From IMG/VR virus record IMGVR_UViG_3300031920_000245, positions 1-58,100 of that record: a stretch of 58,100 nucleotides of DNA; one strand, given 5' to 3'. The notes below the pieces were generated by a model. The model saw only the letters and a list, made by a program, of their open reading frames with translations. It was not told where the DNA came from and did not search any database. Position 1 is the first letter of the stretch; each line of letters starts with the position of its first letter. The stretch comes from a virus (taxonomy: Duplodnaviria; Caudoviricetes). This document shows, in pieces, positions 42,836-58,100 of the stretch. Position numbers and translations under genes: made by a program.

Positions 42836-42862
42836 TGTAACCTTTTATATCTTTGCAACGTA
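42836..42862 (+). promoter_or_regulatory. TGTAAC-N17-CGTA promoter of tRNA operon 1
   Basis: TGTAAC 42836-42841, CGTA 42859-42862. Confidence 0.65.
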
Positions 42863-42912
42863 TTTAGTAATAAAGAAACAATTTATGTTTAAAGATATTA
42901 GAATTTAGAACA

Positions 42913-42969
42913 ATGAAAAGAATAATTAACATACAACCGCAACCGCAACATCAACCAATATTTGGTTAG
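42913..42969 (+). CDS. Attenuator leader peptide 1, MKRIINIQPQPQHQPIFG
   Basis: Codon run CAA CCG CAA CCG CAA CAT CAA CCA; followed by antiterminator, terminator and tRNA-Pro, Pro, His, Gln. Confidence 0.85.
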   Translation: MKRIINIQPQPQHQPIFG

Positions 42970-43057
42970 TTGAACGGGAATGTTATGTGTTAAATATATA
43001 TTAACTTAAAATAAAACAGGACCTCCGTTCAATAAAATGAACGGGGGTTTTTTATTT
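42970..43057 (+). terminator. Attenuator 1: antiterminator plus intrinsic terminator
   Basis: Terminator ACCTCCGTTCA-ataaaa-TGAACGGGGGT-TTTTT at 43021-43057; TTGAACGG at 42970 is complementary to its 5' arm CCGTTCAA. Confidence 0.85.
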
Positions 43058-43825: not shown

Positions 43826-43865
43826 CAATTTTTTTATTTCATATGTTTTTATTACCTTTACCCCT

Positions 43866-44249: not shown

Positions 44250-44260
44250 AACATAAAATT

Positions 44261-44512
44261 ATGATACCAGATTACGAAGAAGAACATAGAATAGATCAAG
44301 CTAATAAAGCATATGAATTGTTTGAAAGATTTTTAGAATCACATGACGGTAAAAGAATATTCCCTGAACATAAGGAATTACTTGATTATTTTTTATTGAA
44401 AGAATTACATATTGACGAATTAAAAGAAAAAATTCACCAATATGAAAGTTTCTTTAATACCTTAAAAGGTTTTTTACCTCGTGATTTTTCGATTCATGAT
44501 AAATTAAGTTAA
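44261..44512 (+). CDS. Hypothetical protein
   Basis: 83-aa ORF. Confidence 0.5.
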   Translation: MIPDYEEEHRIDQANKAYELFERFLESHDGKRIFPEHKELLDYFLLKELHIDELKEKIHQYESFFNTLKGFLPRDFSIHDKLS

Positions 44513-45265: not shown

Positions 45266-45349
45266 AGTAGTTTTGTTTTTAATATAAATACAATTATCAT
45301 ACCAAGTCTTTAATTAAAAATTATGTATTTATATAAAATATTGGTTATT

Positions 45350-46009: not shown

Positions 46010-46049
46010 AAAATAATTCACTTTTTTTGTAACATTTAAAATAAAAAAT

Positions 46050-46535: not shown

Positions 46536-46552
46536 AAATAATTCACTTTTTT

Positions 46553-46578
46553 TGTAACATTTAATATTTATATACGTA
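46553..46578 (+). promoter_or_regulatory. TGTAAC-N16-CGTA promoter of tRNA operon 2
   Basis: TGTAAC 46553-46558, CGTA 46575-46578; GTATTTATA also at 46596. Confidence 0.65.
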
Positions 46579-46623
46579 TATTTGCATAGAAGATTGTATT
46601 TATAAAAAATAAAACACGATAAA

Positions 46624-46734
46624 ATGAAAAATTTAATGGACATAATGTTAATTTCTGCACTCGTTGCCTTATTATGGGCAGATAACGATGTGGATGAACT
46701 ATGTTCAGTCGGGTTTAATAAATTAAGATGTTAA
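46624..46734 (+). CDS. Attenuator leader peptide 2, MKNLMDIMLISALVALLWADNDVDELCSVGFNKLRC
   Basis: Core ALVALLWADNDVDEL matches downstream tRNA identities; contains antiterminator AGTCGGGTTT at 46707-46716. Confidence 0.8.
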   Translation: MKNLMDIMLISALVALLWADNDVDELCSVGFNKLRC

Positions 46735-46755
46735 CTAAGCTAACTTTTTAAATAG

Positions 46756-46795
46756 AAAAACCCGACTTGAGTAATTAAGTCGGGTTTTTTGTTTT
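46756..46795 (+). terminator. Attenuator 2 terminator
   Basis: AAAAACCCGACTTGA-gtaa-TTAAGTCGGGTTTTTT-GTTTT. Confidence 0.88.
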
Positions 46796-46933
46796 ATATA
46801 AGTAATTGTTCTTTGACGTATTGGGAAATTAAAATGGTGTTCAAGTTATCTGGATAATCCAGATGGGTTGAATATTAAACATAATTAAGGGTTATTATAT
46901 CGAATAATTTTCGTAAATTCGAACCCTTAATAT

Positions 46934-47010
46934 GGTCTACGGGGCTGCTAGGTGTGGCTGCCGGACTGTCACTCCGGAGATTCAGATGGGTTCGAACCCC
47001 ATGTAGACCG
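46934..47010 (+). tRNA. tRNA-Asp(GUC)
   Basis: GGTCTAC/GTAGACC; CCGGA-CTGTCAC-TCCGG; G73. Confidence 0.88.
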
Positions 47011-47052
47011 CTTTTTTACATATTGACAGTATTTATATTAAATATAAATTTT

Positions 47053-47754
47053 ATGAAAAGTAAAAGATATGAAAAAGAATTTTTTAGTCAAATAGTTAAA
47101 CATTCACATAATCTAACAGACATTGCTGAAAAATTAAATTTAAAACCACATTGTGGTAATAGAGATACAATAAAAAAATATATTAACATATATAGATTAG
47201 ATACATCACATTTTAGAGTAAGATATGAATTAAGAATAAAAAGGAAAATCCCATTATCTGAAATAATGATAAGTGGATCAACATATTCAACAACTAATTT
47301 AAAAGAAAGATTATATGATGAGGGTTTAAAAGAAAGAGAATGTGAGAAATGTGGACAAGGGGAAATATGGTATGGTGATAATATGTCTTTAATTCTTGAC
47401 CATATTAATGGGGATAGTAGTGATCATAGGTTTGAAAATCTTCGTATATTATGTCCAAATTGTAATGCAACATTACCAACACATGGTGGTAAAAATAAAA
47501 GAAATAAAAAATATTATTATTATAATGATTCTAATCAATATTGCAATTGTGGTAATAAAAAAAATAATAAAGCAGAATTGTGTAAAAAATGTAATGATAT
47601 TAATATTAGAAAAGTAAAGAGACCTACATATAATCAATTAATTAAAGAAATTAAAGAAACATCGTATTGTGCTGTAGGTAGAAAATATAATGTTAGTGAT
47701 AATACAATAAGAAAATGGATAAAGTTTTATGAAAATAATAATACACCCTCGTAG
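47053..47754 (+). CDS. HNH homing endonuclease
   Basis: CEKC...LDHINGDSSDHRFENLRILCPNCNA; C-terminal HTH; likely start ATG 47053. Confidence 0.9.
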   Translation: MKSKRYEKEFFSQIVKHSHNLTDIAEKLNLKPHCGNRDTIKKYINIYRLDTSHFRVRYELRIKRKIPLSEIMISGSTYSTTNLKERLYDEGLKERECEKCGQGEIWYGDNMSLILDHINGDSSDHRFENLRILCPNCNATLPTHGGKNKRNKKYYYYNDSNQYCNCGNKKNNKAELCKKCNDINIRKVKRPTYNQLIKEIKETSYCAVGRKYNVSDNTIRKWIKFYENNNTPS

Positions 47755-47818
47755 TTCAGTCGGTTAGAATATAAGCCTGTCACGCTTAAGGTCGCCCGTT
47801 CGAGTCGGGTCGGGGGTG
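47745..47818 (+). tRNA. tRNA-Asp(GUC), second copy
   Basis: ACCCTCG/CGGGGGT; TAAGC-CTGTCAC-GCTTA. Confidence 0.9.
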
Positions 47819-47827
47819 CAGACAAAT

Positions 47828-47900
47828 ACTCCTATAACTCAGTTGGTAGAGTGCTTGTGTTACATACAAGATGTCATCGGTTCAAGTCCGGTTGGGAGTA
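47828..47900 (+). tRNA. tRNA-Val(UAC)
   Basis: ACTCCTA/TGGGAGT; CTTGT-GTTACAT-ACAAG. Confidence 0.88.
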
Positions 47901-47940
47901 CAATTCGATTTTTCCAGACACGTCTGGAATATTCAAAAAT

Positions 47941-48012
47941 GCTGCGTTAGTGAAGTGGTTATCACGTCAGACTTTCAATCTGGAGTCGGGAGTTCAATTC
48001 TCCTACGCAGTA
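47941..48012 (+). tRNA. tRNA-Glu(UUC)
   Basis: GCTGCGT/ACGCAGT; TCAGA-CTTTCAA-TCTGG. Confidence 0.88.
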
Positions 48013-48109
48013 CAAATTTTTTATTGGTACAAAATTAACAAAAGAGTTAGTATTTAATATAAATGATAAAAAAAGATGTTTTTATTGGTATAAAACTAAC
48101 AAATTATAT

Positions 48110-48181
48110 GGCGCATTCTTCTAACGGCTAGGAAATCGGGTTTTCATCCCGGCAATGGGGGTTCGATTCCCCCATGCGTTA
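48110..48181 (+). tRNA. tRNA-Glu(UUC), second copy
   Basis: GGCGCAT/ATGCGTT; TCGGG-TTTTCAT-CCCGG. Confidence 0.88.
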
Positions 48182-48631
48182 CAATGTTTCTTCTTCTTTC
48201 TTACCATGATCACCCATATAAGAAAGATGGAAGAAACAACTATAAAGTGTCCACATAAACAATAAATTAAGTATCATTTCCATAGGATTTGCGATTATTA
48301 ATCTCCAAGATACTTCAAGTGAGAACATTGGTAAGCTAAGAAAACATAATATCCAAATTGTTTTAAATGTGTGCCATAAATCTGTCGTAAAGACCAAAAC
48401 TGATTTAAATATTGGGGTTAATATTTTTTTAAATATTTCAGGTATGTTTTTATCATCTAAAAAATATTTATTTTTATGACTTACTGCGGGATTTGCCCAT
48501 TGTTGGAATTTTTCGTTTTTAATTCTAGACCAGTATGTTTTTTTATATTTATGTCTAATTTTATCAGACATTCCATTAAAAAAACCACCGATAGCAATTA
48601 AAATATATGGTGTTAAAATATAAAGTATCAT
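48179..48631 (-). CDS. Membrane protein antisense to the tRNA array
   Basis: Hydrophobic segments, TDLWH motif; late motif at 48637. Confidence 0.6.
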   Translation of the reverse strand: MILYILTPYILIAIGGFFNGMSDKIRHKYKKTYWSRIKNEKFQQWANPAVSHKNKYFLDDKNIPEIFKKILTPIFKSVLVFTTDLWHTFKTIWILCFLSLPMFSLEVSWRLIIANPMEMILNLLFMWTLYSCFFHLSYMGDHGKKEEETL

Positions 48632-48677
48632 TTAAACATAAATACTATTTATTTAATACAAATAAAATATATTTGAT

Positions 48678-48926
48678 ATGGATTTAGAAAATAAAATTGA
48701 AAAATTAGAACAGGAAAATGATGATCTTAAAGATCAATTATTTGAATTACAAACAAATTTAAAATATTCTCGTGAAAATGATTTACGTGATTTTCTTAGA
48801 ACATTATACAGGGAAATTAATGAAGAAATTGAAGATGATGAAAGTAAATTATCAAAAGAAGATATATTAAAGAATATGAAAAAATATATTTCTGTTTTTT
48901 CTGAAAAATATAATCTACCACTATAA
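48678..48926 (+). CDS. Hypothetical coiled-coil protein
   Basis: 82-aa ORF. Confidence 0.55.
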   Translation: MDLENKIEKLEQENDDLKDQLFELQTNLKYSRENDLRDFLRTLYREINEEIEDDESKLSKEDILKNMKKYISVFSEKYNLPL

Positions 48927-48934
48927 TTTAATAT

Positions 48935-49012
48935 TGTCGCATAGCTCAGTAGGTTCAGAGCACTTGGTTTACACCCAAGGGGTCGTGGGTTCGAATCCCT
49001 CTGCGATAACCA
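48935..49012 (+). tRNA. tRNA-Val(UAC), second copy, CCA encoded
   Basis: TGTCGCA/TGCGATA-ACCA; CTTGG-TTTACAC-CCAAG. Confidence 0.9.
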
Positions 49013-49103
49013 CATTTATCGGTAAATATATCGATAAACTACATTTATCGGGTTTAGAGTCGATAAATTATTTAAAGTGGTCAAATATAACCACTTTAAA
49101 CAC

Positions 49104-49185
49104 CCCCTTGTGGTGGAATTGGTAGACACGCATGATTTAGGATCATGTGCCGTAAGGCATGAGAGTTCGAGTCTCTCCAAGGGGA
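49104..49185 (+). tRNA. tRNA-Leu(UAG)
   Basis: CCCCTTG/CAAGGGG; CATGA-TTTAGGA-TCATG; long variable arm. Confidence 0.92.
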
Positions 49186-49259
49186 CAAGCTTAATCGGGG
49201 TAACGATAGTAAGTTCCCGACACTTAGAGGTGAAATTATAGTTTACCATAAGCACGTAT

Positions 49260-49334
49260 GGGGCAGTAGCATAGTCTGGCTAATGCGTTTGTTTTGCAAG
49301 CAAAAGATCGCTGGTTCAAATCCAGTCTGTTCCA
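49260..49334 (+). tRNA. tRNA-Ala(UGC)
   Basis: GGGGCAG/CTGTTCC with G3:U70; TTTGT-TTTGCAA-GCAAA. Confidence 0.88.
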
Positions 49335-49383
49335 CAAGTAGAAATAGGTTTTCGTGCGGTTTTCCTCAAATAAACCAAACTAT

Positions 49384-49465
49384 GGGAACGTGGTGGAATT
49401 GGTATACACGATAGTTTAAGGAGCTATTACTTTACAGTGTGAGGGTTCGAGTCCCTCCGTTCTCA
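49384..49465 (+). tRNA. tRNA-Leu(AAG)
   Basis: GGGAACG/CGTTCTC; Leu-type D arm; ATAGT-TTAAGGA-GCTAT. Confidence 0.82.
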
Positions 49466-49541
49466 CAAATTTACATCAGTTAGGTCTAATCTTTCTATTA
49501 TTAATGGTAAATTAGACTAAACTGATGTAATTAGATTAAAT

Positions 49542-49626
49542 GGCGATGTGGTGGAATTGGTAGACACGCTGGACTTAAAATCCAGTGAGCATTACGCTCG
49601 TGGGGGTTCAAATCCCCCCATCGCTA
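49542..49626 (+). tRNA. tRNA-Leu(UAA)
   Basis: GGCGATG/CATCGCT; CTGGA-CTTAAAA-TCCAG. Confidence 0.93.
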
Positions 49627-49631
49627 CAAAT

Positions 49632-49705
49632 GGGGCATTAGCTCAGATGGCTAGAGCACCTCCCTTGCACGGAGGGGGTCGTGGGTTCGAGTCCCACATG
49701 TTCCA
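49632..49705 (+). tRNA. tRNA-Ala(UGC), second copy
   Basis: GGGGCAT/ATGTTCC; CCTCC-CTTGCAC-GGAGG. Confidence 0.93.
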
Positions 49706-49798
49706 CAAAATGAGTTGCACCTTGAATATTCATTAATTATTAGAGGACGATTAGGTTTGATATCAACTGAAAGATCGTTAATAATATTCTATTAAGGT

Positions 49799-49890
49799 TT
49801 GATCACTTTAATGGGTATGAATGTGATAATAGGATGGCGACCCTGTTTGAAAAGAACAGGATGTATAGGGTTCGATACCCTTGTGATTCA
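49799..49890 (+). pseudogene. Aberrant tRNA-like gene (possibly Phe-derived)
   Basis: T arm AGGG-TTCGATA-CCCT, GATCAC/GTGATT acceptor, hairpin CCTGTT-TGAAAAG-AACAGG; expanded non-canonical D region. Confidence 0.5.
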
Positions 49891-49939
49891 CAAAATTGTT
49901 TTTGGTAATATTCATCTATTTATAATAAAATACAATATT

Positions 49940-50419
49940 ATGATAGATCAAATAGACCAATATGTTTTCTTTTTTATAATGCAAGCAGTTTTCATATCAT
50001 ACGTGTTTTTCATTATGATTAAGTATGGAGTACAAAAATCAATTTCAGAAAGTTATTACGCATTACCACCTAAATTAAGACCATTATTTACTTTTTTCTG
50101 TTGGGGTTTTGCTTTCCCTGCAATTATTGTCGGAGATTCAGTATTAATGTTTTTTGCTGGTTCTGGTATTGCTTTTGTTGGTGCTGCATGTAATATGCAT
50201 GAAGAATTTGTGAGGAAAGTACATGTAACTGCAGCAATAATAGGAATAACATGTGCTCATTTGGCAATTATATTTAATTACGATATGTGGTGGCTTACTG
50301 CAGGATTTGTAATTATATCAATTCCAATAATAATATTTAATAAAAAAACATATATTTGGTGGATTGAATTATTATCTTTCATTTCAATAAGCGTTGCGTT
50401 AGGTACATCAATTTTCTAA
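49940..50419 (+). CDS. Multi-pass membrane protein
   Basis: Likely start 49940; SISESYY motif then about five hydrophobic helices. Confidence 0.7.
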   Translation: MIDQIDQYVFFFIMQAVFISYVFFIMIKYGVQKSISESYYALPPKLRPLFTFFCWGFAFPAIIVGDSVLMFFAGSGIAFVGAACNMHEEFVRKVHVTAAIIGITCAHLAIIFNYDMWWLTAGFVIISIPIIIFNKKTYIWWIELLSFISISVALGTSIF

Positions 50420-50424
50420 TACTT

Positions 50425-50498
50425 ACGTCCGTAGTTCAATTAGGTAGAATGCTGGTCTCCAAAACCAGAGGTTGGGGGTTCGATTCCCTCCGGGCGTG
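50425..50498 (+). tRNA. tRNA-Trp(CCA)
   Basis: ACGTCCG/CGGGCGT; CTGGT-CTCCAAA-ACCAG; G73. Confidence 0.92.
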
Positions 50499-50520
50499 CT
50501 AATATTTATTCAATAATTTA

Positions 50521-50760
50521 ATGGTAATGAAACACGAATTAAAAGAAATTGTGAAAGGAACTGTGGCAAAATTAGAGCATGTTTGTAATGGTAAAGCTGA
50601 TTATAGAATCAATGTTAATGATACTATTTATCAACTTGAAATTAACATTATGGAAAAGGAATGGGAAAATATATACATACTTCCGGAATATAAATCGATA
50701 ACATTAATGCGTTGGATCAGAAAAGGGATTGAGAATGGTAATCTTATTCAATTAAATTAA
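50521..50760 (+). CDS. Hypothetical protein
   Basis: 79 aa with KSITLMRWIRK. Confidence 0.55.
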   Translation: MVMKHELKEIVKGTVAKLEHVCNGKADYRINVNDTIYQLEINIMEKEWENIYILPEYKSITLMRWIRKGIENGNLIQLN

Positions 50761-50766
50761 TTTTTT

Positions 50767-50792
50767 TGTAACATTTCTTGATATTCTCCGTA
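50767..50792 (+). promoter_or_regulatory. TGTAAC-N16-CGTA promoter
   Basis: TGTAAC 50767-50772, CGTA 50789-50792. Confidence 0.65.
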
Positions 50793-50815
50793 TATATAAT
50801 TAAATTTGACAACTT

Positions 50816-51544
50816 ATGTTGATACTTGGAAAAAATAGAGATTATTATGATGGTGTTGTCGGTACAATGGGTATTGATAAAACTATTGTTTATAATCGTC
50901 ATACTGTTGAAAATGATGACTGTAAAAAATTTCCAAAAGAATTTAAATGTAAATTACATTATAGTGATGATGAATCAAAATTTATTGATCTTTGTTCTTA
51001 TGGTATTGACAGTGATAAAACTAAAAAATATAAAGAAGTTGATGTTTTTTTTATTGGTTTTTGTGGTAAAATATATATCGGTTGGAAATTTTATTATTTA
51101 ATTGGTAATGGTATTCACGAAAAAATGAAATATGATATTGTTTATGATATTGATGTAGCAAAGAAATACATTAAAGATAATAGATGGGGTAGTGGTAATC
51201 TTAATGATATTCTGAATCATATTAAAAATTATAATCCTATTGAATTATTTAGAGAAAATAATACACCTATTTTTATTTATGATAGTCATATAGATAGAAT
51301 AGATTTAGATAAATATTATGGTAGTAACAATCAAAGATTTATTATTAATCCGGTGTTAAAAGAATATAAATTTTATAAGGTTTTTGATACATTTAGTGCC
51401 TTTCAAGAAATTCAAATGTTTATCTCCGGTGTGTTGGGATCTAATGAAAAAGATATTATTGAAGTGGAAGATAAATATAAAATTGCACAACATGGTTTTA
51501 ATAAATGGTCCTTTAGAAGAGAACCATCAAAGAAAAAGAAATAA
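50816..51544 (+). CDS. Hypothetical phage protein
   Basis: 242 aa; DYYDG, FIGFCGKIY, AFQEIQMFISG, HGFNKWSFR. Confidence 0.7.
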   Translation: MLILGKNRDYYDGVVGTMGIDKTIVYNRHTVENDDCKKFPKEFKCKLHYSDDESKFIDLCSYGIDSDKTKKYKEVDVFFIGFCGKIYIGWKFYYLIGNGIHEKMKYDIVYDIDVAKKYIKDNRWGSGNLNDILNHIKNYNPIELFRENNTPIFIYDSHIDRIDLDKYYGSNNQRFIINPVLKEYKFYKVFDTFSAFQEIQMFISGVLGSNEKDIIEVEDKYKIAQHGFNKWSFRREPSKKKK

Positions 51545-51587
51545 ATGCTGCGAATAATGAGGTTAATCGTTGCACATTTTACGGCAA

Positions 51588-51875
51588 ATGAGAAATTATA
51601 CTAATTTATTAATAATTCCCGCAAAATTTGCGAAGAATAGTGATGATAATCAACGCATAATTAATTGTGTGATCGGTAAAACCCCTGATGGTGTGCCAAT
51701 TACACAATTAAGAAAATTTGAGAAATATTGTACAGAAGGTATTGAAAATCCGACCTATTTATTAATAGGCATCATAAGTGGTCAGGGTTTTACACGAGTA
51801 ACATTTACCGATGCCAAAGAGTTTGAAAAATTGTTCATTGAAAAATGGGGTTGTCTGGATTTGACAGCAACGTAG
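51588..51875 (+). CDS. Hypothetical protein overlapping the tmRNA 5' end
   Basis: ATG 51588; stop lies inside ssrA. Confidence 0.45.
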   Translation: MRNYTNLLIIPAKFAKNSDDNQRIINCVIGKTPDGVPITQLRKFEKYCTEGIENPTYLLIGIISGQGFTRVTFTDAKEFEKLFIEKWGCLDLTAT

Positions 51876-52215
51876 AATGGTAAGTAAGCAAGTGGTAGTT
51901 GTAGAATCTACTTTAAAAAAGTTACAAAACTATAAATGCAGAAGACTTAATGTCTATTCCAACATTTCTTAACAGAAGTGTACCAGCAGTTGCAAGTGAA
52001 GCTGAACTAGCAATGGCTGCGTAAGGAAACAGCAAAAAAACAGCGAAAAACTTGTAATCAAGTAAGGTTTGAGATACCTTTAAATAATCACTCTGGTTAA
52101 TTATTCGACTATAACGAATAGATATTTTGGATGATTAGAAAATCATATCCTAAACTTGTAGAAAACTTATTAGTCACTTGTTTGGACGTGGGTTCGACTC
52201 CCACCAACTCCACCA
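51847..52215 (+). ncRNA. ssrA: tmRNA
   Basis: 5' GGGGTTG...GGATTTGAC; 3' GACGTGGGTTCGACTCCCACCAACTCCACCA with G3:U; tag ORF 51938-52024 after ATAAAT ending LAMAA-stop. Confidence 0.93.
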
Positions 52216-52216
52216 A

Positions 52217-52362
52217 GGTAATTGTGGGGTCTTAATAAGACTTAAAGATAGTTTGCAAACGTAGGTAGTTAGAGTTCATGATGATAGCTATCAAATGATG
52301 TGTTGGCATGGGAGTTCGACTCTTCCACACGTTGCTTTAAGTTAAAGACCCTACACATTACT
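52217..52362 (+). ncRNA. Unidentified structured RNA
   Basis: TGTGGGGTCTT/AAGACCCTACA and ACTTAAAG/CTTTAAGT closing stems; internal GGAG-TTCGA-CTCT T-loop-like hairpin. Confidence 0.55.
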
Positions 52363-52399
52363 GATAAAAAATAAGAAAGATTGAAAGACATTTGGAGAT

Positions 52400-52705
52400 A
52401 TGAAAAAATTAGTTAGAGATAGAATTCCAGAAATTATCGAAAAAAAAGAAGGTAAATCACCAGATTATTATATTGCTAAATCTGAAGAGTATGAAGGAAG
52501 ATTATATGATAAATTAGGTGAAGAAACTATTGAATTTATCAATGAACCTTGTGCTGAAGAACTTGCTGATATTTTAGAAGTGGTTGGTGCACTTGCTAAA
52601 TTTCATGGTATTGGTCTTGAGGATATTAAAATAGCTAAGAACAAAAAATTCAGAGAAAGAGGTGGTTTTAATGAACGTTTAGTATTAAATATGCCTGAAA
52701 AATAA
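52400..52705 (+). CDS. MazG/HisE-like nucleoside triphosphate pyrophosphohydrolase
   Basis: KLVRDRIPEII, KL.EE..EF, EELADILEV, K..ERGGF. Confidence 0.85.
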   Translation: MKKLVRDRIPEIIEKKEGKSPDYYIAKSEEYEGRLYDKLGEETIEFINEPCAEELADILEVVGALAKFHGIGLEDIKIAKNKKFRERGGFNERLVLNMPEK

Positions 52706-52747
52706 CATAATTTAAATTATGCCCCCATGAAAGCATATTTATATTAA

Positions 52748-52879
52748 ATGAATAGAAAACCATTACATATTAAACCTTCCCGGAAAAAACCAACTGAATA
52801 TTGTTGTGGTAAGAGAGTTAAAGTTGGTGATCGTGGTAGAAAAAAACCAAACATAACAAGAAGAATAAAAAAAAGATAA
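52748..52879 (+). CDS. 43-aa very basic peptide
   Basis: MNRKPLHIKPSRKKPTEYCCGKRVKVGDRGRKKPNITRRIKKR. Confidence 0.45.
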   Translation: MNRKPLHIKPSRKKPTEYCCGKRVKVGDRGRKKPNITRRIKKR

Positions 52880-52911
52880 CTCCCATGAATGTTTTTCTTG
52901 GAATTTAATTT

Positions 52912-52993
52912 GCCTCAATGATGGAACTGGTAGACATGCAGGTTTCAAAAACCTGTGCTTCCGAGCTTGTGGGTTCAAATCCCACTTGAGGTA
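52912..52993 (+). tRNA. tRNA-Leu(CAA)
   Basis: GCCTCAA/TTGAGGT; CAGGT-TTCAAAA-ACCTG. Confidence 0.9.
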
Positions 52994-53012
52994 CTATTTA
53001 TAAATAAATAAC

Positions 53013-53192
53013 ATGAATATTTTAGAATTAACATTAATCACTATTTTTATTATGGTAGTTGGATTATATCTAATTATTGAATTAATTGATTCTTTTTTCC
53101 GAATCAGATCATATTTTAAAAGGTCACCTTTTTCAGAATATGATCAGAAAATTGGATTAAGTTATAATCCTAAAACTAAAAAATTAACATAA
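53013..53192 (+). CDS. 59-aa membrane protein
   Basis: MNILELTLITIFIMVVGLYLIIELID...; CTATTTATA upstream. Confidence 0.5.
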   Translation: MNILELTLITIFIMVVGLYLIIELIDSFFRIRSYFKRSPFSEYDQKIGLSYNPKTKKLT

Positions 53193-53250
53193 TTATGAAA
53201 AACTCAAAAGAAAGGTCATCAGTCTTCTAATACTAAAATGTTAGAAGATT

Positions 53251-53541
53251 ATGAGAAGAATTAAAGAAACTGTAGACAATACCTCAAATAGGGGTGAGTT
53301 TAATCGAGCATACAAACGGTATCTCGAAAGTAAAGGAAAAATTCGTTGTTCGTACTGTGGTTATAATCGTGGTGAAAACGATAATAGAAAATGGTATGGT
53401 AGTAACATGAGGGATGGTATTAGTTATCCTAATTGGAAATTAGCCACTAAAAACAGTAAACAATGGATGGATAAAAACCTCGAAATAACAAATAAAATTA
53501 TTCGAGGTGTAGAACATACCACTATCAAATTTAAACGATAG
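53251..53541 (+). CDS. Basic protein with CxxC
   Basis: 96 aa; IRCSYCG. Confidence 0.6.
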   Translation: MRRIKETVDNTSNRGEFNRAYKRYLESKGKIRCSYCGYNRGENDNRKWYGSNMRDGISYPNWKLATKNSKQWMDKNLEITNKIIRGVEHTTIKFKR

Positions 53542-53552
53542 TGGTTTTATCT

Positions 53553-53626
53553 TGCGGGGTAGCTTAGTCGGTTAAAGCGTTGGAGTCATATCCCAAAGAC
53601 CGAGGGTTCGAATCCCTCTCCCGCAA
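53553..53626 (+). tRNA. tRNA-Met(CAU), initiator-like acceptor
   Basis: TGCGGGG/TCCCGCA; TTGGA-GTCATAT-CCCAA with one mismatch. Confidence 0.8.
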
Positions 53627-53694
53627 CAAATTTCCCAATACGTTTTTTATATATAAATTTATTCATATATTTGTCTAATAAAAACACAAATAAT

Positions 53695-54240
53695 ATGGAA
53701 GAATTAAAAACACCACTTGTAATTAATTTATTTGCTGGTCCGAGCACTGGTAAAAGTACATCTGCAGCACAAATTTTCTCTGAATTAAAATGGATGGGAA
53801 TTAATTGTGAGATGGTTACAGAATTTGCAAAAGATAAAGTATGGGAAGAATCATTTAAGGTCTTAGATGATCAGGTTTACATTTTCGGTAAACAAGTACA
53901 TAGAATGCGTAGACTTGTTGGTAAGGTTGATATAATTATTACTGATTCACCGATCTTAAATTCATTGGTTTATGATGAATCTGGAAATGATAATTTTCAT
54001 AATTTAATTTTGGATGTTTTTAATGAATTTAATAACTTAAACTTCTTTCTTAGAAGAACAAAAAAATTCCAACAAGCTGGAAGAGTCCAAAATGAAGAGA
54101 AATCAAAGTTGTTAGATAATAAAGTTTGGAATATGTTATGTGATAATAAAATACCTTGTGATCCGGTTGATGCAAGTAAAGAGAATATAATAAAAGAGGT
54201 TTTACCTATAATTAATAGAGTATATTCAGCAAATAAATAA
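53695..54240 (+). CDS. NadR/AAA_28-like P-loop ATPase or kinase
   Basis: INLFAGPSTGKST, EFAKD, ITDSP, GRVQ. Confidence 0.8.
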   Translation: MEELKTPLVINLFAGPSTGKSTSAAQIFSELKWMGINCEMVTEFAKDKVWEESFKVLDDQVYIFGKQVHRMRRLVGKVDIIITDSPILNSLVYDESGNDNFHNLILDVFNEFNNLNFFLRRTKKFQQAGRVQNEEKSKLLDNKVWNMLCDNKIPCDPVDASKENIIKEVLPIINRVYSANK

Positions 54241-54256
54241 AATAATTCGGAAATAA

Positions 54257-54282
54257 TGTAACCTTTGTTTGGTTTATTCGTA
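54257..54282 (+). promoter_or_regulatory. TGTAAC-N16-CGTA promoter of tRNA operon 3
   Basis: TGTAAC 54257-54262, CGTA 54279-54282 overlapping GTATTTATA. Confidence 0.65.
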
Positions 54283-54322
54283 TTTATAGTATAGATTTGT
54301 AAAGTTAAATTTAAAAAAGAAA

Positions 54323-54409
54323 ATGATGTCAAGAATTAACACATATTATTTCAAGAAATCTTATAAGAAGTATCTTATAGGAATCGGGAATCGTATGATT
54401 AGTTCATAA
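54323..54409 (+). CDS. Attenuator leader peptide 3, MMSRINTYYFKKSYKKYLIGIGNRMISS
   Basis: TAT TAT TTC AAG AAA TCT TAT AAG AAG TAT; antiterminator GAATCGGG at 54381-54388. Confidence 0.85.
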   Translation: MMSRINTYYFKKSYKKYLIGIGNRMISS

Positions 54410-54440
54410 AAAATAAATTAACTAAAACTAATATATGTTT

Positions 54441-54476
54441 AAAAACCCGATTCTTAATAGAGTCGGGTTTTTTGTT
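54441..54476 (+). terminator. Attenuator 3 terminator
   Basis: AAAAACCCGATTCT-taat-AGAGTCGGGTTTTTT-GTT. Confidence 0.88.
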
Positions 54477-54502
54477 GTATAAAAGTTCTTTGAATATATA
54501 AT

Positions 54503-54575
54503 GATCTCGTAGCTCAGTTGGTAGAGCACCTGCCTTTTAAGCAGGGAGTCGTGGGTTCGATCCCCACTGGGGTCA
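54503..54575 (+). tRNA. tRNA-Lys(UUU)
   Basis: GATCTCG/TGGGGTC; CCTGC-CTTTTAA-GCAGG. Confidence 0.92.
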
Positions 54576-54638
54576 CAGAAAAGAGGAATGATAGAGTCCA
54601 CACTACCTCTTCCTATATATGGGGATGTGGACACCAAT

Positions 54639-54710
54639 GGTTTCGTAGCTGAGTTGGTTTAGCACCGCCCTTTTAAGGCGGGGACGTGGGTTCGACCCCC
54701 ACCGGGATCA
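54639..54710 (+). tRNA. tRNA-Lys(UUU), second copy
   Basis: GGTTTCG/CGGGATC; CCGCC-CTTTTAA-GGCGG. Confidence 0.9.
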
Positions 54711-54723
54711 CTATTAAATATAT

Positions 54724-54816
54724 CACATAATGGTGAAAAGGAATACACTATCCAAGACATGGGGAGAGGGATGCTGGCAACACCATTCCATACGGGTTCG
54801 AGTCCCGTTTATGTGA
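54724..54816 (+). pseudogene. tRNA-like gene with Leu-type body and broken anticodon arm
   Basis: CACATAA/TTATGTG acceptor, TGGTGAAAAGGAATACAC D arm, ACGGG-TTCGAGT-CCCGT T arm, long variable arm; no canonical anticodon loop. Confidence 0.6.
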
Positions 54817-54830
54817 CAAAAATTAATATT

Positions 54831-54995
54831 ATGAGTAGAGAAGAATTATTAGCATTTTTACGTGAAAATCTAACCATTGAAGTATCATTAGATGATGAAT
54901 ATGAAGGTGATGGTAGATATGCAACAAGTAATGTGACATTAAGATTATGTGATGAAGAAATTTCATCATCATATGATTCAGTAAAGATAGATTAA
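54831..54995 (+). CDS. Small acidic protein
   Basis: Likely start ATG 54831 (MSREELLAFLRENL...). Confidence 0.55.
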   Translation: MSREELLAFLRENLTIEVSLDDEYEGDGRYATSNVTLRLCDEEISSSYDSVKID

Positions 54996-54998
54996 ATT

Positions 54999-55081
54999 GG
55001 ATAGGTGGTCGAGTGGTTAATGGCAGCAGACTGTAACTCTGCCCTCTTAGGAGTTCGGGGGTTCGAATCCCTCCCTGTCCA
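54999..55081 (+). tRNA. tRNA-Tyr(GUA)
   Basis: GGATAGG/CCTGTCC; GCAGA-CTGTAAC-TCTGC; long variable arm. Confidence 0.92.
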
Positions 55082-55154
55082 CAATATTGTCAGTTGGGGA
55101 GTCTTAGTGACTTTATGCCACCTCCTATCGGGGTGGACTCTGGCAATATTAATT

Positions 55155-55234
55155 GGGTACGTTGAGCAATTGGTGGCTCGCCTGACTGTAGATCAGGTCT
55201 TAACAGCTTGGGGGTTCGAATCCCTCCGTGCCCA
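55155..55234 (+). tRNA. tRNA-Tyr(GUA), second copy
   Basis: GGGTACG/CGTGCCC; CCTGA-CTGTAGA-TCAGG. Confidence 0.9.
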
Positions 55235-55306
55235 CTTTTTATTTTTCTAATTAATTTAGATATTATATATTATTTTTTATATATTTGTATGAATTAATTA
55301 TTCCAC

Positions 55307-56176
55307 ATGAAAAAATATTCGTTTAGTGAGGTTGATTGTTTAACAACAACACAATATATAATGGCATCTTGGAAATATTCAGGTGCTAATTTTTGTAGGG
55401 ATTTAATTAAAGAAAATTTTCCGGAGTGTTTTAATTGGGGACTGTGGGGTAAAACACATTCAATATTATCAATAGAAGCGTATAAAACAGTAAGTAATAA
55501 AAATATTAAAATTTTTCTTATTCTTGCTGACCCAAGAGATGTGTCTGCACATATAGGATATCACGAAAATGGCTGGAATTGCGATAAAAAAGATTATTCT
55601 GATTATGCATATAATCATCGGGATAGTTTAGTTTTTTTAAATGAAAACATGTATAAAATTAATGAATTATTATCATATTACATATCCAAATTTAAAGATA
55701 GTTGTTTAGTTTTAAGGTATGAAGATGCATATTATAATCCTGATATTTTTTTAAATAAGGTGGGTAAGTTTTTAAATTTAAAACCACTTAATATCAATGA
55801 CATTAATAAATATCGTCAAGATATTAACAGAAATATTGGTGTTTTTCCATATTATTATAGTTCAGAAACAAATGAACAACATTATAAACAATATCAGAAT
55901 TTTTATGTTAAATGGGGATACGGTAAACAGGGTTTTTTTTACAGTGATTTCGATAATGAAACAAAACACAATAAATTTCTAAAAGATAAAGGTTGGGAAT
56001 ATTTAAATTATGAACCATATATAGATAATGGTTTAAAATACAGTATTAAAGATTCTAAATATATTGAATTTTTAAATAGAAATAAAGTGTATTCAATGGT
56101 AATCCCAATTAATTATAGGAATGGTGCACTTAATAATCATATTGAAGATCGAATAAAAAAATTAAGAAATGAATAA
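55307..56176 (+). CDS. Sulfotransferase-fold protein
   Basis: SWKYSGAN, KTH, LADPRDV, LRYED pattern of sulfotransferase-like proteins. Confidence 0.6.
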   Translation: MKKYSFSEVDCLTTTQYIMASWKYSGANFCRDLIKENFPECFNWGLWGKTHSILSIEAYKTVSNKNIKIFLILADPRDVSAHIGYHENGWNCDKKDYSDYAYNHRDSLVFLNENMYKINELLSYYISKFKDSCLVLRYEDAYYNPDIFLNKVGKFLNLKPLNINDINKYRQDINRNIGVFPYYYSSETNEQHYKQYQNFYVKWGYGKQGFFYSDFDNETKHNKFLKDKGWEYLNYEPYIDNGLKYSIKDSKYIEFLNRNKVYSMVIPINYRNGALNNHIEDRIKKLRNE

Positions 56177-57029
56177 AAATGTAATATCGTTTTGTTGTCA
56201 TGCGAAAAATAGATTACAACACGTTAAACTAACTTTAGAATTTAATTTAGAAATTTTATCAAAGTATAATAATGTTGAATTAATATTATCAGATTTTGAT
56301 TCGAATGATGGTCTTTTTGAATGGATAAAAACAAATGAAAATCTGAAAAAACATTTAAACTCCGGTTTATTAAAATATTTTAAAATAAATAATGAACCAT
56401 ATTTTAAAATGGCATCATCAAAAAATTTATCCCATAGATTAGCAACCGGAGATTATTTAATTAATTTAGATTCTGATAATTTTTTATGTGAAGAGTACAT
56501 TGATAAAGTAAAAGAAATTATAAACATTAATTTACATACGCTTATACATAAAAAAGAAACAGCAACAGCACTTTATGGTAGGGTAGGTTTATCAAATAAA
56601 ATGTTTAATGATGTTGTTGGTTATGATGAAATATATCAACATTGGGGTTGTGAAGATAATGATTTGTTACATAGAGTTAGAAACTATAAAGATATTTCAG
56701 AATATGATATTGATATATATCATATTGATCCTGAAATTATGGGGTCATTCATAGAACATAGTAATTGTTTAAGAATATCGAATTATAACGTTGACGATTT
56801 AAACCCTGAAGCTTTAATAAAGGGTACGTATGATATGTTTGTACATGGTATTGATGATGAAGGTAAGGTGTATTATAAAACGGATAAATATCCTATATTT
56901 AAAATAAATAATCAAGATTATTTTGAGGATACATTATCATCTGACAGATATAAATCAAGAAAACCATTTAATATATTTAATGTTTATACATTAAATTTAG
57001 ATTTGATTTTTTTTAAGAAATTGAATTAA
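56169..57029 (+). CDS. Glycosyltransferase (GT2/GT7-like)
   Basis: SDFDSNDG, NLDSDN (DxD), GYDE....WGCEDNDL..R. Confidence 0.85.
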   Translation: MNKNVISFCCHAKNRLQHVKLTLEFNLEILSKYNNVELILSDFDSNDGLFEWIKTNENLKKHLNSGLLKYFKINNEPYFKMASSKNLSHRLATGDYLINLDSDNFLCEEYIDKVKEIININLHTLIHKKETATALYGRVGLSNKMFNDVVGYDEIYQHWGCEDNDLLHRVRNYKDISEYDIDIYHIDPEIMGSFIEHSNCLRISNYNVDDLNPEALIKGTYDMFVHGIDDEGKVYYKTDKYPIFKINNQDYFEDTLSSDRYKSRKPFNIFNVYTLNLDLIFFKKLN

Positions 57030-57031
57030 TT

Positions 57032-58100
57032 ATGAAAAAAATTTTATTTATTACATTTAATTTAAATCCTTACAATCAGTTTAGTATTAATCACGCTATC
57101 CCTATTTTTTCTGCAATAATTGATAGAAATAAATGGGATGTTAATTTTATAACAGTAAGAGAAGATAATAATTCCGATGATTTATTAAATGATATAAATA
57201 AAATTGATCCAGATGTTATTGGTTATTCTTGTACTTATTTTGATTTAAAAAACATTAATGAATTAAGCTTTCAATTAAAAAAATATTTTCAAATTGCTGG
57301 TGGAATTGGACCAACAACCACTCCGGATTTATTTTTAAATAAAACAAATTTAGATGGTGTTGTTGTTGGGGATGGTGAAATACCTTTAATTCAATTATTG
57401 GATGCAATTTATGAAGTTAAATCATTTAATGATATTGACGGTTTTTATTGGAAAGAAAAAACAATAAAAAATAAATTACCCAAACTAATTAAATTAAATA
57501 ATTACCCAATCCCGGATTATTCCATATATATAAATGACAATGTTTTTAATTCTTTTTCTGAATTTCCTGTTGTTATTAGTAGAGGTTGTCCATTTATGTG
57601 TAATCATTGTGCCACACCAACAATGAAAAAAATATTAGGTTTAGGATCGTTTAGAACATATTCACCAACAAAAACTATTGAAATTTTAATTCATATTTTG
57701 TTTAATTTCCCAAACACAAAAAAAATCATTTTTCAAGACGATGTTTTAATTATGAATAAAAAATGGTTTAAAGAATTTTCAACAATATATAAAGAAAAGA
57801 TAAATTTACCATATGTAGCACAAGCACGACCAAGAATGATATCTATTGAGATTTGTGAACAATTAAAAAACAGTGGTTGTGAATTAATACAAATTGGTGT
57901 GGAATCCGGAAGTGAAAGAATTAGAAAAGAAATTTTAAATCGAGATGAAACAAATAAAGATATTTTAGAAAAAATAAATTTAATAAAAAAAACAGACATT
58001 AAAATCCATATATATACTATGATTGGTTTACCTACCGAAACCAAAAAAGAAATGAAAGAAACATTTAAATTAATTAAAAAAATAAAACCAAATGATGGGT
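57032..58100 (+). CDS. B12-binding radical SAM enzyme, truncated by the window edge
   Basis: PDVIGYS, AGGIGPT, VVGDGE, SRGCPFMCNHC (CxxxCxxC), GVESGSERIR, MIGLPTET. Confidence 0.9.
   Translation, partial: MKKILFITFNLNPYNQFSINHAIPIFSAIIDRNKWDVNFITVREDNNSDDLLNDINKIDPDVIGYSCTYFDLKNINELSFQLKKYFQIAGGIGPTTTPDLFLNKTNLDGVVVGDGEIPLIQLLDAIYEVKSFNDIDGFYWKEKTIKNKLPKLIKLNNYPIPDYSIYINDNVFNSFSEFPVVISRGCPFMCNHCATPTMKKILGLGSFRTYSPTKTIEILIHILFNFPNTKKIIFQDDVLIMNKKWFKEFSTIYKEKINLPYVAQARPRMISIEICEQLKNSGCELIQIGVESGSERIRKEILNRDETNKDILEKINLIKKTDIKIHIYTMIGLPTETKKEMKETFKLIKKIKPNDG

What the first reader, a model, noticed from the sequence alone, without database searches (positions are those of the whole stretch)
54323..55234. 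Attenuator 3: YYFKKSYKKY leader upstream of tRNA-Lys x2 and tRNA-Tyr x2
Eight of ten consecutive codons are Tyr or Lys. GAATCGGG (54381) is the exact complement of the terminator arm CCCGATTC (54446). Established: tRNA-Lys is the target of PrrC and PARIS, and tRNA-Tyr of retron Ec78 PtuAB. Inference: this unit is an inducible counter-defence.
Basis: partly seen in the sequence, partly recalled or inferred. Interest (0 to 1): 0.88.

Follow-up and report, generated by a model that had tools for sequence, protein, structure and literature searches.

The report
Attenuator controlling phage Lys/Tyr tRNA genes
A giant phage seems to switch on its own lysine and tyrosine tRNA genes only when ribosomes stall for lack of those tRNAs, using a classic leader-peptide attenuator that has not been described in front of tRNA genes.

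Summary
A promoter-like motif (54257-54283) is followed by a 28-codon ORF (54323-54409) with YYFKKSYKKY. GAATCGGG (54381-54388) is the reverse complement of the terminator arm CCCGATTC (54446-54453). The terminator ends 30 nt before tRNA-Lys x2 and tRNA-Tyr x2.

The unit is conserved in 16 distinct sequences from a clade of about 330-365 kb jumbo phages. Fifteen of the 16 are followed by Lys/Tyr tRNAs; the last runs off its contig.

It is one of four leader classes whose peptide composition mirrors the tRNAs downstream:
- PHQ
- DEVLAWM
- KY
- CISNFGTR

Together these cover all 20 amino acids. The operon's own set is the most enriched in 25 of 25 leaders. In 20 of 25 leaders the terminator has its own specific antiterminator complement; none of 6 leaderless terminators does.

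Best reading (about 0.8): ribosome-mediated transcription attenuation that puts each phage tRNA operon under feedback from the supply of its own charged tRNAs. The Lys/Tyr-specific counter-defence idea is not excluded, but it is too narrow. No RNA or experimental data exist. Seven literature searches found no description of such a system. I rate it a new variant of a known kind, of high interest.

The parts
54257..54283 (+). Promoter-like motif TGTAAC-N16-CGTAT, 17 nt after the stop of the upstream AAA_28-domain gene (53671-54240)
   Evidence: The pattern TGTAACN{15,18}CGTAT has 6 matches in the window against 0.07 expected (0 of 100 shuffles reach 6). There are 61 matches in the window plus the fetched tRNA regions of 10 relatives, lying upstream of start codons or directly upstream of tRNAs. 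Promoter function is inferred.
54323..54409 (+). Leader ORF, 28 codons: MMSRINTYYFKKSYKKYLIGIGNRMISS
   Evidence: An ORF with the core (T/K)YYYxKKSYKK is present in all 16 distinct homologous leaders. Indels upstream of the Lys/Tyr core are multiples of 3.
54344..54373 (+). Sensing codons YYFKKSYKKY (4 Tyr, 4 Lys); they overlap region 1
   Evidence: In a simple footprint model, a ribosome with its A site on codons 3-15 leaves the antiterminator free.
54359..54382 (+). P1 (1:2) hairpin: UCUUAUAAGA (the S-Y-K-K codons) pairs with UCUUAUAGGA. In the full-length minimum-free-energy fold it extends outwards to 54333-54405.
   Evidence: Counted together with the terminator, 82.8% of cells are paired and 7 pairs change on both sides; 0 of 500 shuffles reach this. 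The P1 helix alone is 84.9% paired.
54379..54388 (+). Region 2, the antiterminator 5' arm AGGAAUCGGG, lying inside the leader ORF (codons I-G-I-G)
   Evidence: duplex -17.1 kcal/mol against -6.8 +/- 1.7 in shuffles, p = 0.003. 89.6% of cells are paired across 16 sequences, against at most 63% when the partner is slid. In G016 and G015 it is read in a different frame, so it is conserved as RNA.
54441..54472 (+). Intrinsic terminator: regions 3 and 4, with 5' arm 54441-54454, 3' arm 54459-54472 and a T-tract. Region 3 (54446-54455) is shared with the antiterminator.
54503..54576 (+). tRNA-Lys(UUU) 1, starting 30 nt after the terminator
   Evidence: (67.3 bits).
54639..54711 (+). tRNA-Lys(UUU) 2
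   Evidence: (61.1 bits).
54724..54817 (+). Aberrant 94-nt tRNA-like gene with a long extra arm, called Val(GAC) by ARAGORN
   Evidence: (32 bits, gathering score 29). It is the only tRNA of 124 operon/leader amino-acid combinations with no matching codon in its leader.
54831..54995 (+). 54-aa ORF inside the tRNA operon, with no Pfam family
54999..55082 (+). tRNA-Tyr(GUA) 1
55155..55235 (+). tRNA-Tyr(GUA) 2
42836..43051 (+). Sister unit 1. Promoter-like motif 42836-42863; leader 42913-42969 (MKRIINIQPQPQHQPIFG); antiterminator arm GUUGAACGG about 42969-42978; terminator 43018-43051. It is followed by tRNA-Pro x2, tRNA-His (43514-43585) and tRNA-Gln.
46553..46790 (+). Sister unit 2. Promoter-like motif 46553-46579; leader 46624-46734 (MKNLMDIMLISALVALLWADNDVDELCSVGFNKLRC); antiterminator arm UUCAGUCGGGUUU; terminator 46755-46790. 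It is followed by Asp, Val, Glu, Leu, Ala, Trp and Met tRNAs.

Best explanation
This is a ribosome-mediated (leader-peptide) transcription attenuator that gates a jumbo-phage tRNA-Lys/tRNA-Tyr operon.

How it would work:
- Transcription starts at the promoter-like motif and the 28-codon leader is translated as it is made.
- If charged tRNA-Lys and tRNA-Tyr are plentiful, the ribosome runs through the Tyr/Lys codons and sits over region 2 (AGGAAUCGGG, inside the ORF) while RNA polymerase makes regions 3 and 4. The terminator then forms and the tRNA genes 30 nt downstream are not transcribed.
- If either tRNA is scarce, the ribosome stalls on YYFKKSYKK (region 1). Region 2 stays free and pairs with region 3 (CCCGAUUCUU) before region 4 is made, so the terminator cannot form and the Lys/Tyr tRNA genes are transcribed.
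- Because the products relieve the stall, this is a negative feedback loop on tRNA supply.

The unit is one of four such attenuators in this phage clade. Three are visible in this window, and together the four cover all 20 amino acids.

Shown: the sequence anatomy, its conservation, the match between leader and tRNAs, the complementarity specific to each terminator, and some compensatory changes. Inferred: promoter activity, translation of the leader, the timing of coupling, and the direction of regulation.
For: 1. Anatomy. All parts are present in the right order. The terminator ends 30 nt before the first tRNA. In 20 of the 25 leader units the terminator ends 7-63 nt before the first tRNA, and in the other five 145-671 nt. 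At such short distances the tRNAs can hardly be expressed except by reading through the terminator.

2. Conservation. Sixteen distinct homologous leaders at 65-75% nucleotide identity come from relatives whose major capsid protein is 73-85% identical. Fifteen of the 16 are followed by Lys and/or Tyr tRNAs; the sixteenth (G015) runs off its contig.

3. Leader composition tracks the operon.
- Across 25 leaders in 10 genomes, the operon's own amino-acid set is the most enriched in 25 of 25.
- The window's 3x4 table of leader residues by amino-acid set gives chi2 = 57, p = 1.7e-10.
- 123 of 124 operon amino acids are represented in their own leader.
- In G032 the Trp tRNA sits in the class D operon. 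There the class D leader has a Trp codon and the class B leader lacks one, the reverse of the other genomes.

4. The antiterminator is specific to each terminator. In 20 of 25 leader units a duplex between the terminator's 5' arm and a segment 31-55 nt upstream beats shuffles at p <= 0.05, and the sequence differs from class to class. Examples are GUUGAACGG, UUCAGUCGGG, GAAUGGGG and GGUAUCGGG. None of the 6 terminators without a leader shows such a duplex (all p > 0.1).

5. Changes seen by eye in class C.
- G023 has AUUCGGG with CCCGAAU, an A-U to U-A swap.
- G022 has an extra pair in both arms (GGAUCAGG with CCUGAUUC).
- G035 uses a shifted register (GGGAAU with AUUCCC).
- G010 changes the terminator A-U to G-C while the antiterminator keeps a G.U pair.

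6. Region 2 is conserved as RNA. A 1-nt deletion in G016 and G015 changes the reading frame over GAAUCGGG, yet the bases are kept and the ORF stays open.

7. Co-transcriptional folding model. With the transcript cut before region 4, the antiterminator forms (9-11 pairs) with the ribosome's A site on codons 3-15. It weakens to 6, 5 and 2 pairs at codons 16-18 and is absent at codons 19-27. Units 1 and 2 behave the same way. In unit 1, with no ribosome, a 1:2 hairpin blocks the antiterminator, as in the trp leader.
Against: - There is no experimental or RNA evidence. No sequencing run holding this stretch is on record as RNA.
- At equilibrium on the full transcript the terminator always wins, so the model rests on kinetics that cannot be tested here.
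- For units 2 and 3, the transcript cut before region 4 forms the antiterminator even with no ribosome, and again when the ribosome sits on the last sense codon or the stop codon. Termination therefore needs the ribosome to be over region 2 at the right moment.
- Formal covariation in the class C antiterminator is weak. The helix hardly varies: 3 pairs change on both sides, and 37 of 500 shuffles do as well.
- Variation by codon position in the leader shows no clear third-position pattern.
- Five of 25 leader units have antiterminator duplex p values of 0.07-0.23.
- Whole-ORF Lys/Tyr enrichment is modest: p = 0.11 in the window and 0.0006-0.053 in relatives.
- The host is unknown, and so is whether it couples transcription to translation.
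- The aberrant tRNA-like gene at 54724-54817 has no matching codon in the leader.
Confidence: 0.8

Rival explanations
1. Dedicated inducible counter-defence. The Lys/Tyr unit exists mainly to replace tRNA-Lys and tRNA-Tyr cut by host anticodon nucleases of the PrrC, PARIS or retron-PtuAB kind. This is a reading of the purpose of the same attenuator mechanism, not a different mechanism.
For: Lys and Tyr have their own small operon and attenuator, separate from the other 18 amino acids, in every relative examined. tRNA-Lys and tRNA-Tyr are documented targets of defence nucleases, and phage tRNAs rescue infection (PMC11464382 passages; PMC11555353 abstract). An attenuator would respond to such depletion.
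Against: The same design controls the tRNAs for all 20 amino acids, so nothing singles out defence targets. The cited systems are from E. coli and its phages; the host here is unknown, and the only runs holding the full stretch are labelled marine sediment metagenome. Whether these phage tRNAs resist any nuclease was not tested. Lys (8.5%) and Tyr (5.1%) are also common residues in this AT-rich phage's proteins, so ordinary translational demand could explain the grouping.
Confidence: 0.15
2. Regulation without the ribosome. The conserved leader RNA, including the palindrome UCUUAUAAGA, is bound by a protein antiterminator or terminator factor, or directly by uncharged tRNA in the manner of a T-box. 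On this view the short ORF is incidental.
For: P1 is a conserved near-palindromic hairpin. Codon-position variation gives no clear sign of coding. At equilibrium P1 does not fully exclude the antiterminator.
Against: No T-box or other leader family matches at E <= 1. An ORF with a start codon stays open through region 2 in all 16 class C leaders and in the 25 leaders of all classes. Leader codons match the tRNAs downstream in 25 of 25 leaders, and a Trp codon moves together with the Trp tRNA in G032. A protein-binding or T-box-like model does not predict this.
Confidence: 0.05
3. No regulation. The hairpin is simply the terminator of the upstream gene or an insulator, the tRNAs are transcribed from elsewhere, and the Lys/Tyr-rich ORF and the 8-nt complement are chance features of AT-rich DNA.
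For: Window-wide, 7 of 100 shuffles produce a 10-codon window equally rich in Lys/Tyr. Whole-ORF enrichment in the window has p = 0.11.
Against: A promoter-like motif lies between the upstream gene and the leader. Only 30 nt separate the terminator from the first tRNA. The whole unit is conserved in 16 distinct sequences. The link between leader and tRNAs holds in 25 of 25 leaders. The complements are specific to each terminator.
Confidence: 0.03

Closest known systems
Leader-peptide attenuators of enterobacterial amino-acid operons (trp, his, leu, thr, ilvGMEDA, pheA; textbook knowledge, recalled)
   Same: A promoter, then a short ORF with a cluster of codons for the sensed amino acids. Region 1 lies within those codons, followed by a 1:2 hairpin, a 2:3 antiterminator and a 3:4 intrinsic terminator. 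A stalled ribosome favours read-through. Sensing of several amino acids by one leader is known for thr (Thr, Ile) and ilv (Ile, Leu, Val).
   Different: The regulated genes here are tRNA genes, not biosynthetic enzymes, so the product itself relieves the stall. The element is in a phage. Leaders sense up to 8-10 amino acids, and four leaders divide all 20 between them. No Rfam leader family matches at E <= 1.
pheST (phenylalanyl-tRNA synthetase) attenuator with the pheM leader in E. coli (recalled)
   Same: A gene of the translation apparatus is controlled by attenuation that responds to the level of the cognate charged tRNA.
   Different: It regulates a synthetase rather than the tRNA, senses a single amino acid, and is chromosomal.
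T-box riboswitch (Rfam RF00230)
   Same: It senses the charging state of a tRNA and switches between a terminator and an antiterminator upstream of translation-related genes.
   Different: A T-box binds uncharged tRNA directly through a specifier codon and the T-box sequence, without a ribosome, and is about 200-300 nt long. Here there is no match to the family, and there is an ORF containing many different codons.
Phage T5 tRNA-Tyr and tRNA-Lys as counter-defence (PMC11555353 abstract and outline; PMC11464382 passages)
   Same: Phage-encoded Lys and Tyr tRNAs that can replace depleted host tRNAs.
   Different: In T5 the reported route to high expression is a strong promoter (a section heading in the outline of PMC11555353). 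No conditional terminator or leader peptide is mentioned in the parts I read.

Membership tests
Ribosome-mediated (leader-peptide) transcription attenuator | A short ORF with a start codon lies between a promoter and the regulated genes | tested here: met
   The ORF is 54323-54409 and the promoter-like motif 54257-54283. The ORF is kept in 16 of 16 class C homologues. Translation itself is not shown.
Ribosome-mediated (leader-peptide) transcription attenuator | A cluster of codons cognate to what the operon supplies | tested here: met
   8 of 10 codons are Tyr or Lys. The operon's own set is the most enriched in 25 of 25 leaders. 123 of 124 operon amino acids are present in their own leader.
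Ribosome-mediated (leader-peptide) transcription attenuator | An intrinsic terminator lies between the leader and the regulated genes | tested here: met
   54441-54472, with 14 pairs and a T-tract, ending 30 nt before tRNA-Lys. It is conserved and shows compensatory changes.
Ribosome-mediated (leader-peptide) transcription attenuator | An alternative antiterminator helix uses the terminator's 5' arm | tested here: met
   A 10-bp 2:3 helix is possible. 89.6% of cells are paired, against at most 63% when slid. The complement is specific to its own terminator in 20 of 25 leader units and in 0 of 6 leaderless terminators. Formal covariation within class C is weak.
Ribosome-mediated (leader-peptide) transcription attenuator | The geometry is right: a stall at the sensing codons frees region 2, and a ribosome that runs on covers it | tested here: met
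   In the footprint model the antiterminator forms with the A site on codons 3-15 and not on codons 19-27. Units 1 and 2 behave the same way. The model is crude (a 30-nt block and equilibrium folding of a truncated transcript).
Ribosome-mediated (leader-peptide) transcription attenuator | Read-through rises when the cognate charged tRNA is limiting | not testable with these tools
   This needs a reporter, in vitro coupled transcription-translation, or transcript mapping. No run holding the stretch is on record as RNA.
T-box riboswitch | Match to the T-box covariance model (specifier loop and T-box sequence) | tested here: not met
   No RF00230 hit at E <= 1 in 42500-55400.
Curated Rfam leader families (His, Trp, Leu, Thr leaders and others) | Match to any such covariance model | tested here: not met
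   Apart from tRNA and tmRNA, only chance-level hits far below the gathering scores were found.
Phage tRNAs as counter-defence against anticodon nucleases | The phage tRNA resists the nuclease that cuts the host tRNA, and rescues infection | not testable with these tools
   The host and its defence systems are unknown, and the anticodon stem-loops were not compared with any host tRNA.

The most novel reading that the evidence does not exclude
This phage clade runs a demand-sensing tRNA supply network. Four leader-peptide attenuators, each sensing several amino acids, divide all 20 amino acids between them. Each places one tRNA operon under negative feedback from the charged-tRNA pool that it replenishes. 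The phage therefore makes its own tRNAs only when the host pool fails, whether through codon mismatch, host shut-off or a defence nuclease. This would be the first case of leader-peptide attenuation controlling tRNA genes, and the first sensor of overall translation capacity built from it.
Probability: 0.7. Interest if true: 0.92.

Novelty: new variant of a known kind. Interest (0 to 1): 0.88.

Why it matters
Phage tRNA genes are usually discussed as constitutive codon-usage helpers or as decoys against tRNA-cutting defences. How they are regulated is largely unknown.

An attenuator in front of each tRNA operon would mean the phage measures the supply of charged tRNA through the ribosome itself and answers by making exactly the tRNAs that are short. 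That gives a direct, testable link between host tRNA depletion and phage gene expression. It also extends a textbook mechanism to a new class of target genes.

The leaders are compact natural sensors for defined sets of amino acids or tRNAs. In addition, the way leader composition follows tRNA content (for example, the Trp codon moves with the Trp tRNA in G032) is an unusually clean example of a regulatory sequence co-evolving with the contents of its operon.

Tried and rejected
- Relatives through neighbouring proteins. The AAA_28-domain protein gave one non-syntenic locus with no tRNAs. The proteins at 55307-56176 and 46050-46535 gave nothing.
- An exact 21-nt tRNA-Lys pattern in viral contigs hit only an unrelated tRNA array.
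- blastn of 53600-57100 against GenBank phages matched only tRNAs and one short coding stretch.
I went through major-capsid-protein relatives and handles instead.
- Expression: no RNA holder was listed for 54200-55300.
- Equilibrium folding of the full transcript with a ribosome block never yields the antiterminator. Only the transcript cut before region 4 does.
- One search used leader start coordinates that were off by 2 nt (unit 1) and 1 nt (unit 2). It was repeated correctly.
- The MAFFT alignment A1 misplaces some terminator 3' arms, so the column counts are conservative. I did not build a covariance model.
- More distant huge phages. In the fetched tRNA regions of LR756511 and LR756508 (major capsid protein 31-34% identical), my script found one terminator in front of tRNAs and no leader ORF. 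The design may therefore be confined to this clade. Only parts of those two genomes were examined.
- TAG recoding was considered because relatives carry a tRNA with anticodon CUA. Long ORFs in the window are open under table 11, and I did not follow this further.
- Literature. Seven searches found no paper on leader-peptide attenuation of tRNA genes in phages or bacteria. Supplements were not seen, and subscription journals are not in the library.
Full report
**What the window is.**
- The DNA is about 29% G+C. It encodes a gp23-type major capsid protein at 18291-19964 on the minus strand (Pfam PF07068, E = 3.9e-74).
- It carries 22 tRNA genes and a tmRNA between 43.2 and 55.2 kb, all on the plus strand. 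Rfam adds a 23rd tRNA.
- The record is a single 58.1 kb virus contig.
- GenBank phages match the capsid protein at only 23-43% identity in the listed rows.
- IMG/VR holds at least 80 relatives whose capsid protein is 73-85% identical. Many are complete genomes of 320-365 kb, so the window is a fragment of a jumbo phage.
- The host is unknown. The only sequencing runs that hold the stretch in full are labelled marine sediment metagenome and may be its source.

**The observation.**
See the observation check for details and the shuffle test.
It lies just after the upstream gene ends at 54240. The motif occurs 6 times in the window against 0.07 expected.
- The Tyr/Lys codons are also part of a hairpin. 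UCUUAUAAGA (the S-Y-K-K codons) pairs with UCUUAUAGGA, which runs into the GAAUCGGG arm.
- The layout is therefore the classic four-region one. Region 1 is the sensing codons. Region 2 is the antiterminator arm, which lies inside the ORF. Regions 3 and 4 form the terminator.

**The unit is conserved.**
- Searching 37 relatives' records with 54250-55240 matched the promoter, leader and terminator at 65-75% identity in many of them.
- I collected 16 distinct versions. G019 is identical to G021 here and was dropped.
- All 16 have an ORF with the core (T/K)YYYxKKSYKK, a region 2 arm (GAAUCGGG or a variant of it) inside the ORF, and a terminator.
- Fifteen of the 16 are followed by Lys and/or Tyr tRNAs. 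The sixteenth, G015, reaches its contig end.
- Column counts on the MAFFT alignment A1:

| Structure | Cells paired | Best slid control | Pairs changed on both sides | Shuffles reaching this |
|---|---|---|---|---|
| Antiterminator | 89.6% | 63.4% | 3 | 37 of 500 |
| P1 plus terminator | 82.8% | 58.8% | 7 | 0 of 500 |

- The antiterminator helix hardly varies, so its formal covariation is weak.
- By eye, the informative class C variants are these:
  - G023 has an A-U to U-A swap between regions 2 and 3, and region 4 follows it.
  - G022 has one extra pair in all three arms.
  - G035 uses a shifted register.
  - G010 changes the terminator from A-U to G-C while the antiterminator keeps a G.U pair.
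- In G016 and G015 a 1-nt deletion puts GAAUCGGG in another reading frame, yet the bases are unchanged and the ORF stays open. Region 2 is thus conserved as RNA, while the Tyr/Lys core stays in frame in every sequence.

**The wider pattern decides the case.**
- The window has two more units of the same build.
  - Unit 1 (leader MKRIINIQPQPQHQPIFG) precedes tRNA-Pro, Pro, His and Gln. The His gene at 43514-43585 was missed by default ARAGORN but found by Rfam and by a relaxed ARAGORN run.
  - Unit 2 (leader MKNLMDIMLISALVALLWADNDVDELCSVGFNKLRC) precedes Asp, Val, Glu, Leu, Ala, Trp and Met tRNAs.
- I fetched the tRNA regions of 10 complete relatives. A script listed every intrinsic terminator with a tRNA within 700 nt downstream, 31 in all.
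- Twenty-five of the 31 have an ORF of at least 15 codons that starts 85-165 nt upstream of the terminator. The other six were left out of the leader statistics and used as negative controls.
- The 25 leaders fall into four classes:

| Class | Amino acids |
|---|---|
| A | Pro, His, Gln |
| B | Asp, Glu, Val, Leu, Ala, Trp, Met |
| C | Lys, Tyr |
| D | Cys, Ile, Ser, Asn, Phe, Gly, Thr, Arg |

- Together these are all 20 amino acids. G007 has all four classes.
- The amino-acid set of the operon's own tRNAs is the most enriched set in 25 of 25 leaders.
- Contingency tables within single genomes give p values from 7e-9 to 2e-13. For the window the value is 1.7e-10.
- 123 of 124 operon amino acids appear in their own leader. 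The single miss is the aberrant tRNA-like gene of the window.
- In G032 the Trp tRNA lies in the class D operon. There the class D leader has a Trp codon and the class B leader has none, the opposite of the other genomes.
- Each terminator has its own complement 31-55 nt upstream, and the sequence differs between classes. This holds in 20 of 25 leader units at p <= 0.05 against 300 dinucleotide shuffles. The other five have p = 0.07-0.23. None of the six leaderless terminators has such a complement.

**Mechanism.**
- I used a crude model: the transcript cut before region 4, and a 30-nt block standing for the ribosome.
- In unit 3 the antiterminator forms (9-11 pairs) when the A site is on codons 3-15. 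It weakens to 6, 5 and 2 pairs at codons 16-18 and is absent at codons 19-27.
- In unit 1 it forms at codons 3-15 and is absent from codon 16 to the stop.
- In unit 2 it forms at codons 3-25 (6 pairs at codon 25) and is absent at codons 26-35.
- In unit 1, with no ribosome at all, the Pro/Gln codons pair with region 2 and block the antiterminator, as in the trp leader.
- On the full transcript the terminator is always the more stable structure. As in known attenuators, the choice must therefore be kinetic.
- In units 2 and 3 the antiterminator can also form with no ribosome, and again once the ribosome reaches the end of the leader (the last sense codon and the stop codon in unit 3). Termination there depends on a ribosome covering region 2 at the right moment. 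P1 may serve as a pause hairpin, but that is inference.
- Because the operon's products are the very tRNAs whose lack causes the stall, the circuit is a negative feedback on tRNA supply.

**The counter-defence idea.**
- The design, however, is general to all 20 amino acids. A defence nuclease is one of several possible causes of tRNA shortage, alongside a codon-usage mismatch between an AT-rich phage and its host, and turnover of host tRNA.
- The separate Lys/Tyr operon is suggestive but is not evidence for counter-defence.

**Comparison with what is known, and novelty.**
- The mechanism matches enterobacterial leader-peptide attenuators, and in its logic it resembles pheST. Both comparisons are recalled from memory.
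- It is not a member of any Rfam leader family and is not a T-box.
- Seven literature searches found nothing on attenuators upstream of tRNA genes. Supplements and subscription-only papers were not visible to me.
- Two more distant huge phages showed no such units in the regions I fetched.
- I rate it a new variant of a known kind: a known switch applied to a new class of genes, organised as a network that covers all 20 amino acids.

**Limits.**
- There are no RNA or experimental data.
- The host is unknown, and promoter activity and leader translation are inferred.
- The relatives share ancestry, so counts across genomes are not independent. The independent units of evidence are the four classes and the variant events described above.

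Noticed in passing
window 42836-43826: Sister attenuator-like unit 1. The leader MKRIINIQPQPQHQPIFG ends in TAG directly before the antiterminator arm. The operon is tRNA-Pro, Pro, His, Gln.
   Followed up: yes
window 46553-46790 and the tRNAs up to 53627: Sister attenuator-like unit 2. Its leader is rich in Asp, Glu, Val, Leu, Ala, Trp and Met, and it precedes tRNAs for exactly these amino acids. The stretch also contains protein ORFs, a further promoter-like motif at 50767, and a tmRNA.
   Followed up: yes
window 43514-43585: tRNA-His(GUG), missed by default ARAGORN. Rfam scores it at 39.6 bits and a relaxed ARAGORN run finds it.
   Followed up: yes
window 54724-54817: An aberrant 94-nt tRNA-like gene with a long extra arm and a poor anticodon stem. 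ARAGORN calls it Val(GAC) and Rfam gives 32 bits. It does not fit the Lys/Tyr leader.
   Followed up: partly
window 51847-52215: A phage-encoded tmRNA (119 bits) with tag peptide AEDLMSIPTFLNRSVPAVASEAELAMAA, lying within the tRNA region.
   Followed up: no
window 46934-47754: An ORF with an HNH endonuclease domain (46954-47754) overlaps the first tRNA-Asp call (46934-47011). Rfam scores that tRNA below the gathering score (27.6 bits). This may be a homing-endonuclease insertion next to or within a tRNA gene.
   Followed up: no
window 5880, 35228, 42836, 46553, 50767, 54257: A promoter-like motif, TGTAAC-N16/17-CGTAT, occurs 6 times in the window against 0.07 expected and is common in relatives. 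Class A, B and D leaders share a nearly identical version, TTGTAACATTTTATATCTTTGCAACGTATTTAGA. Which sigma factor or polymerase reads it is unknown.
   Followed up: partly
relatives G003:C1 about 237300, and the ends of the class D operons of G010 and G016 (L115, L119, L122): tRNAs with anticodon CUA, which ARAGORN labels 'Pyl', sit at the end of the tRNA regions of relatives. They may be amber suppressors and could point to TAG recoding. The unit 1 leader of the window ends in TAG.
   Followed up: no
relative G032 (L134, L136): The Trp tRNA has moved into the class D operon. A Trp codon appears in that operon's leader and is missing from the class B leader.
   Followed up: partly
window 54831-54995: A 54-aa acidic ORF lies between the tRNA-like gene and tRNA-Tyr. 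It has no Pfam family.
   Followed up: no
window 55307-58099: Downstream genes have weak sulfotransferase, glycosyltransferase family 2, and B12-binding radical SAM domains. This is an unusual gene set beside a phage tRNA region.
   Followed up: no
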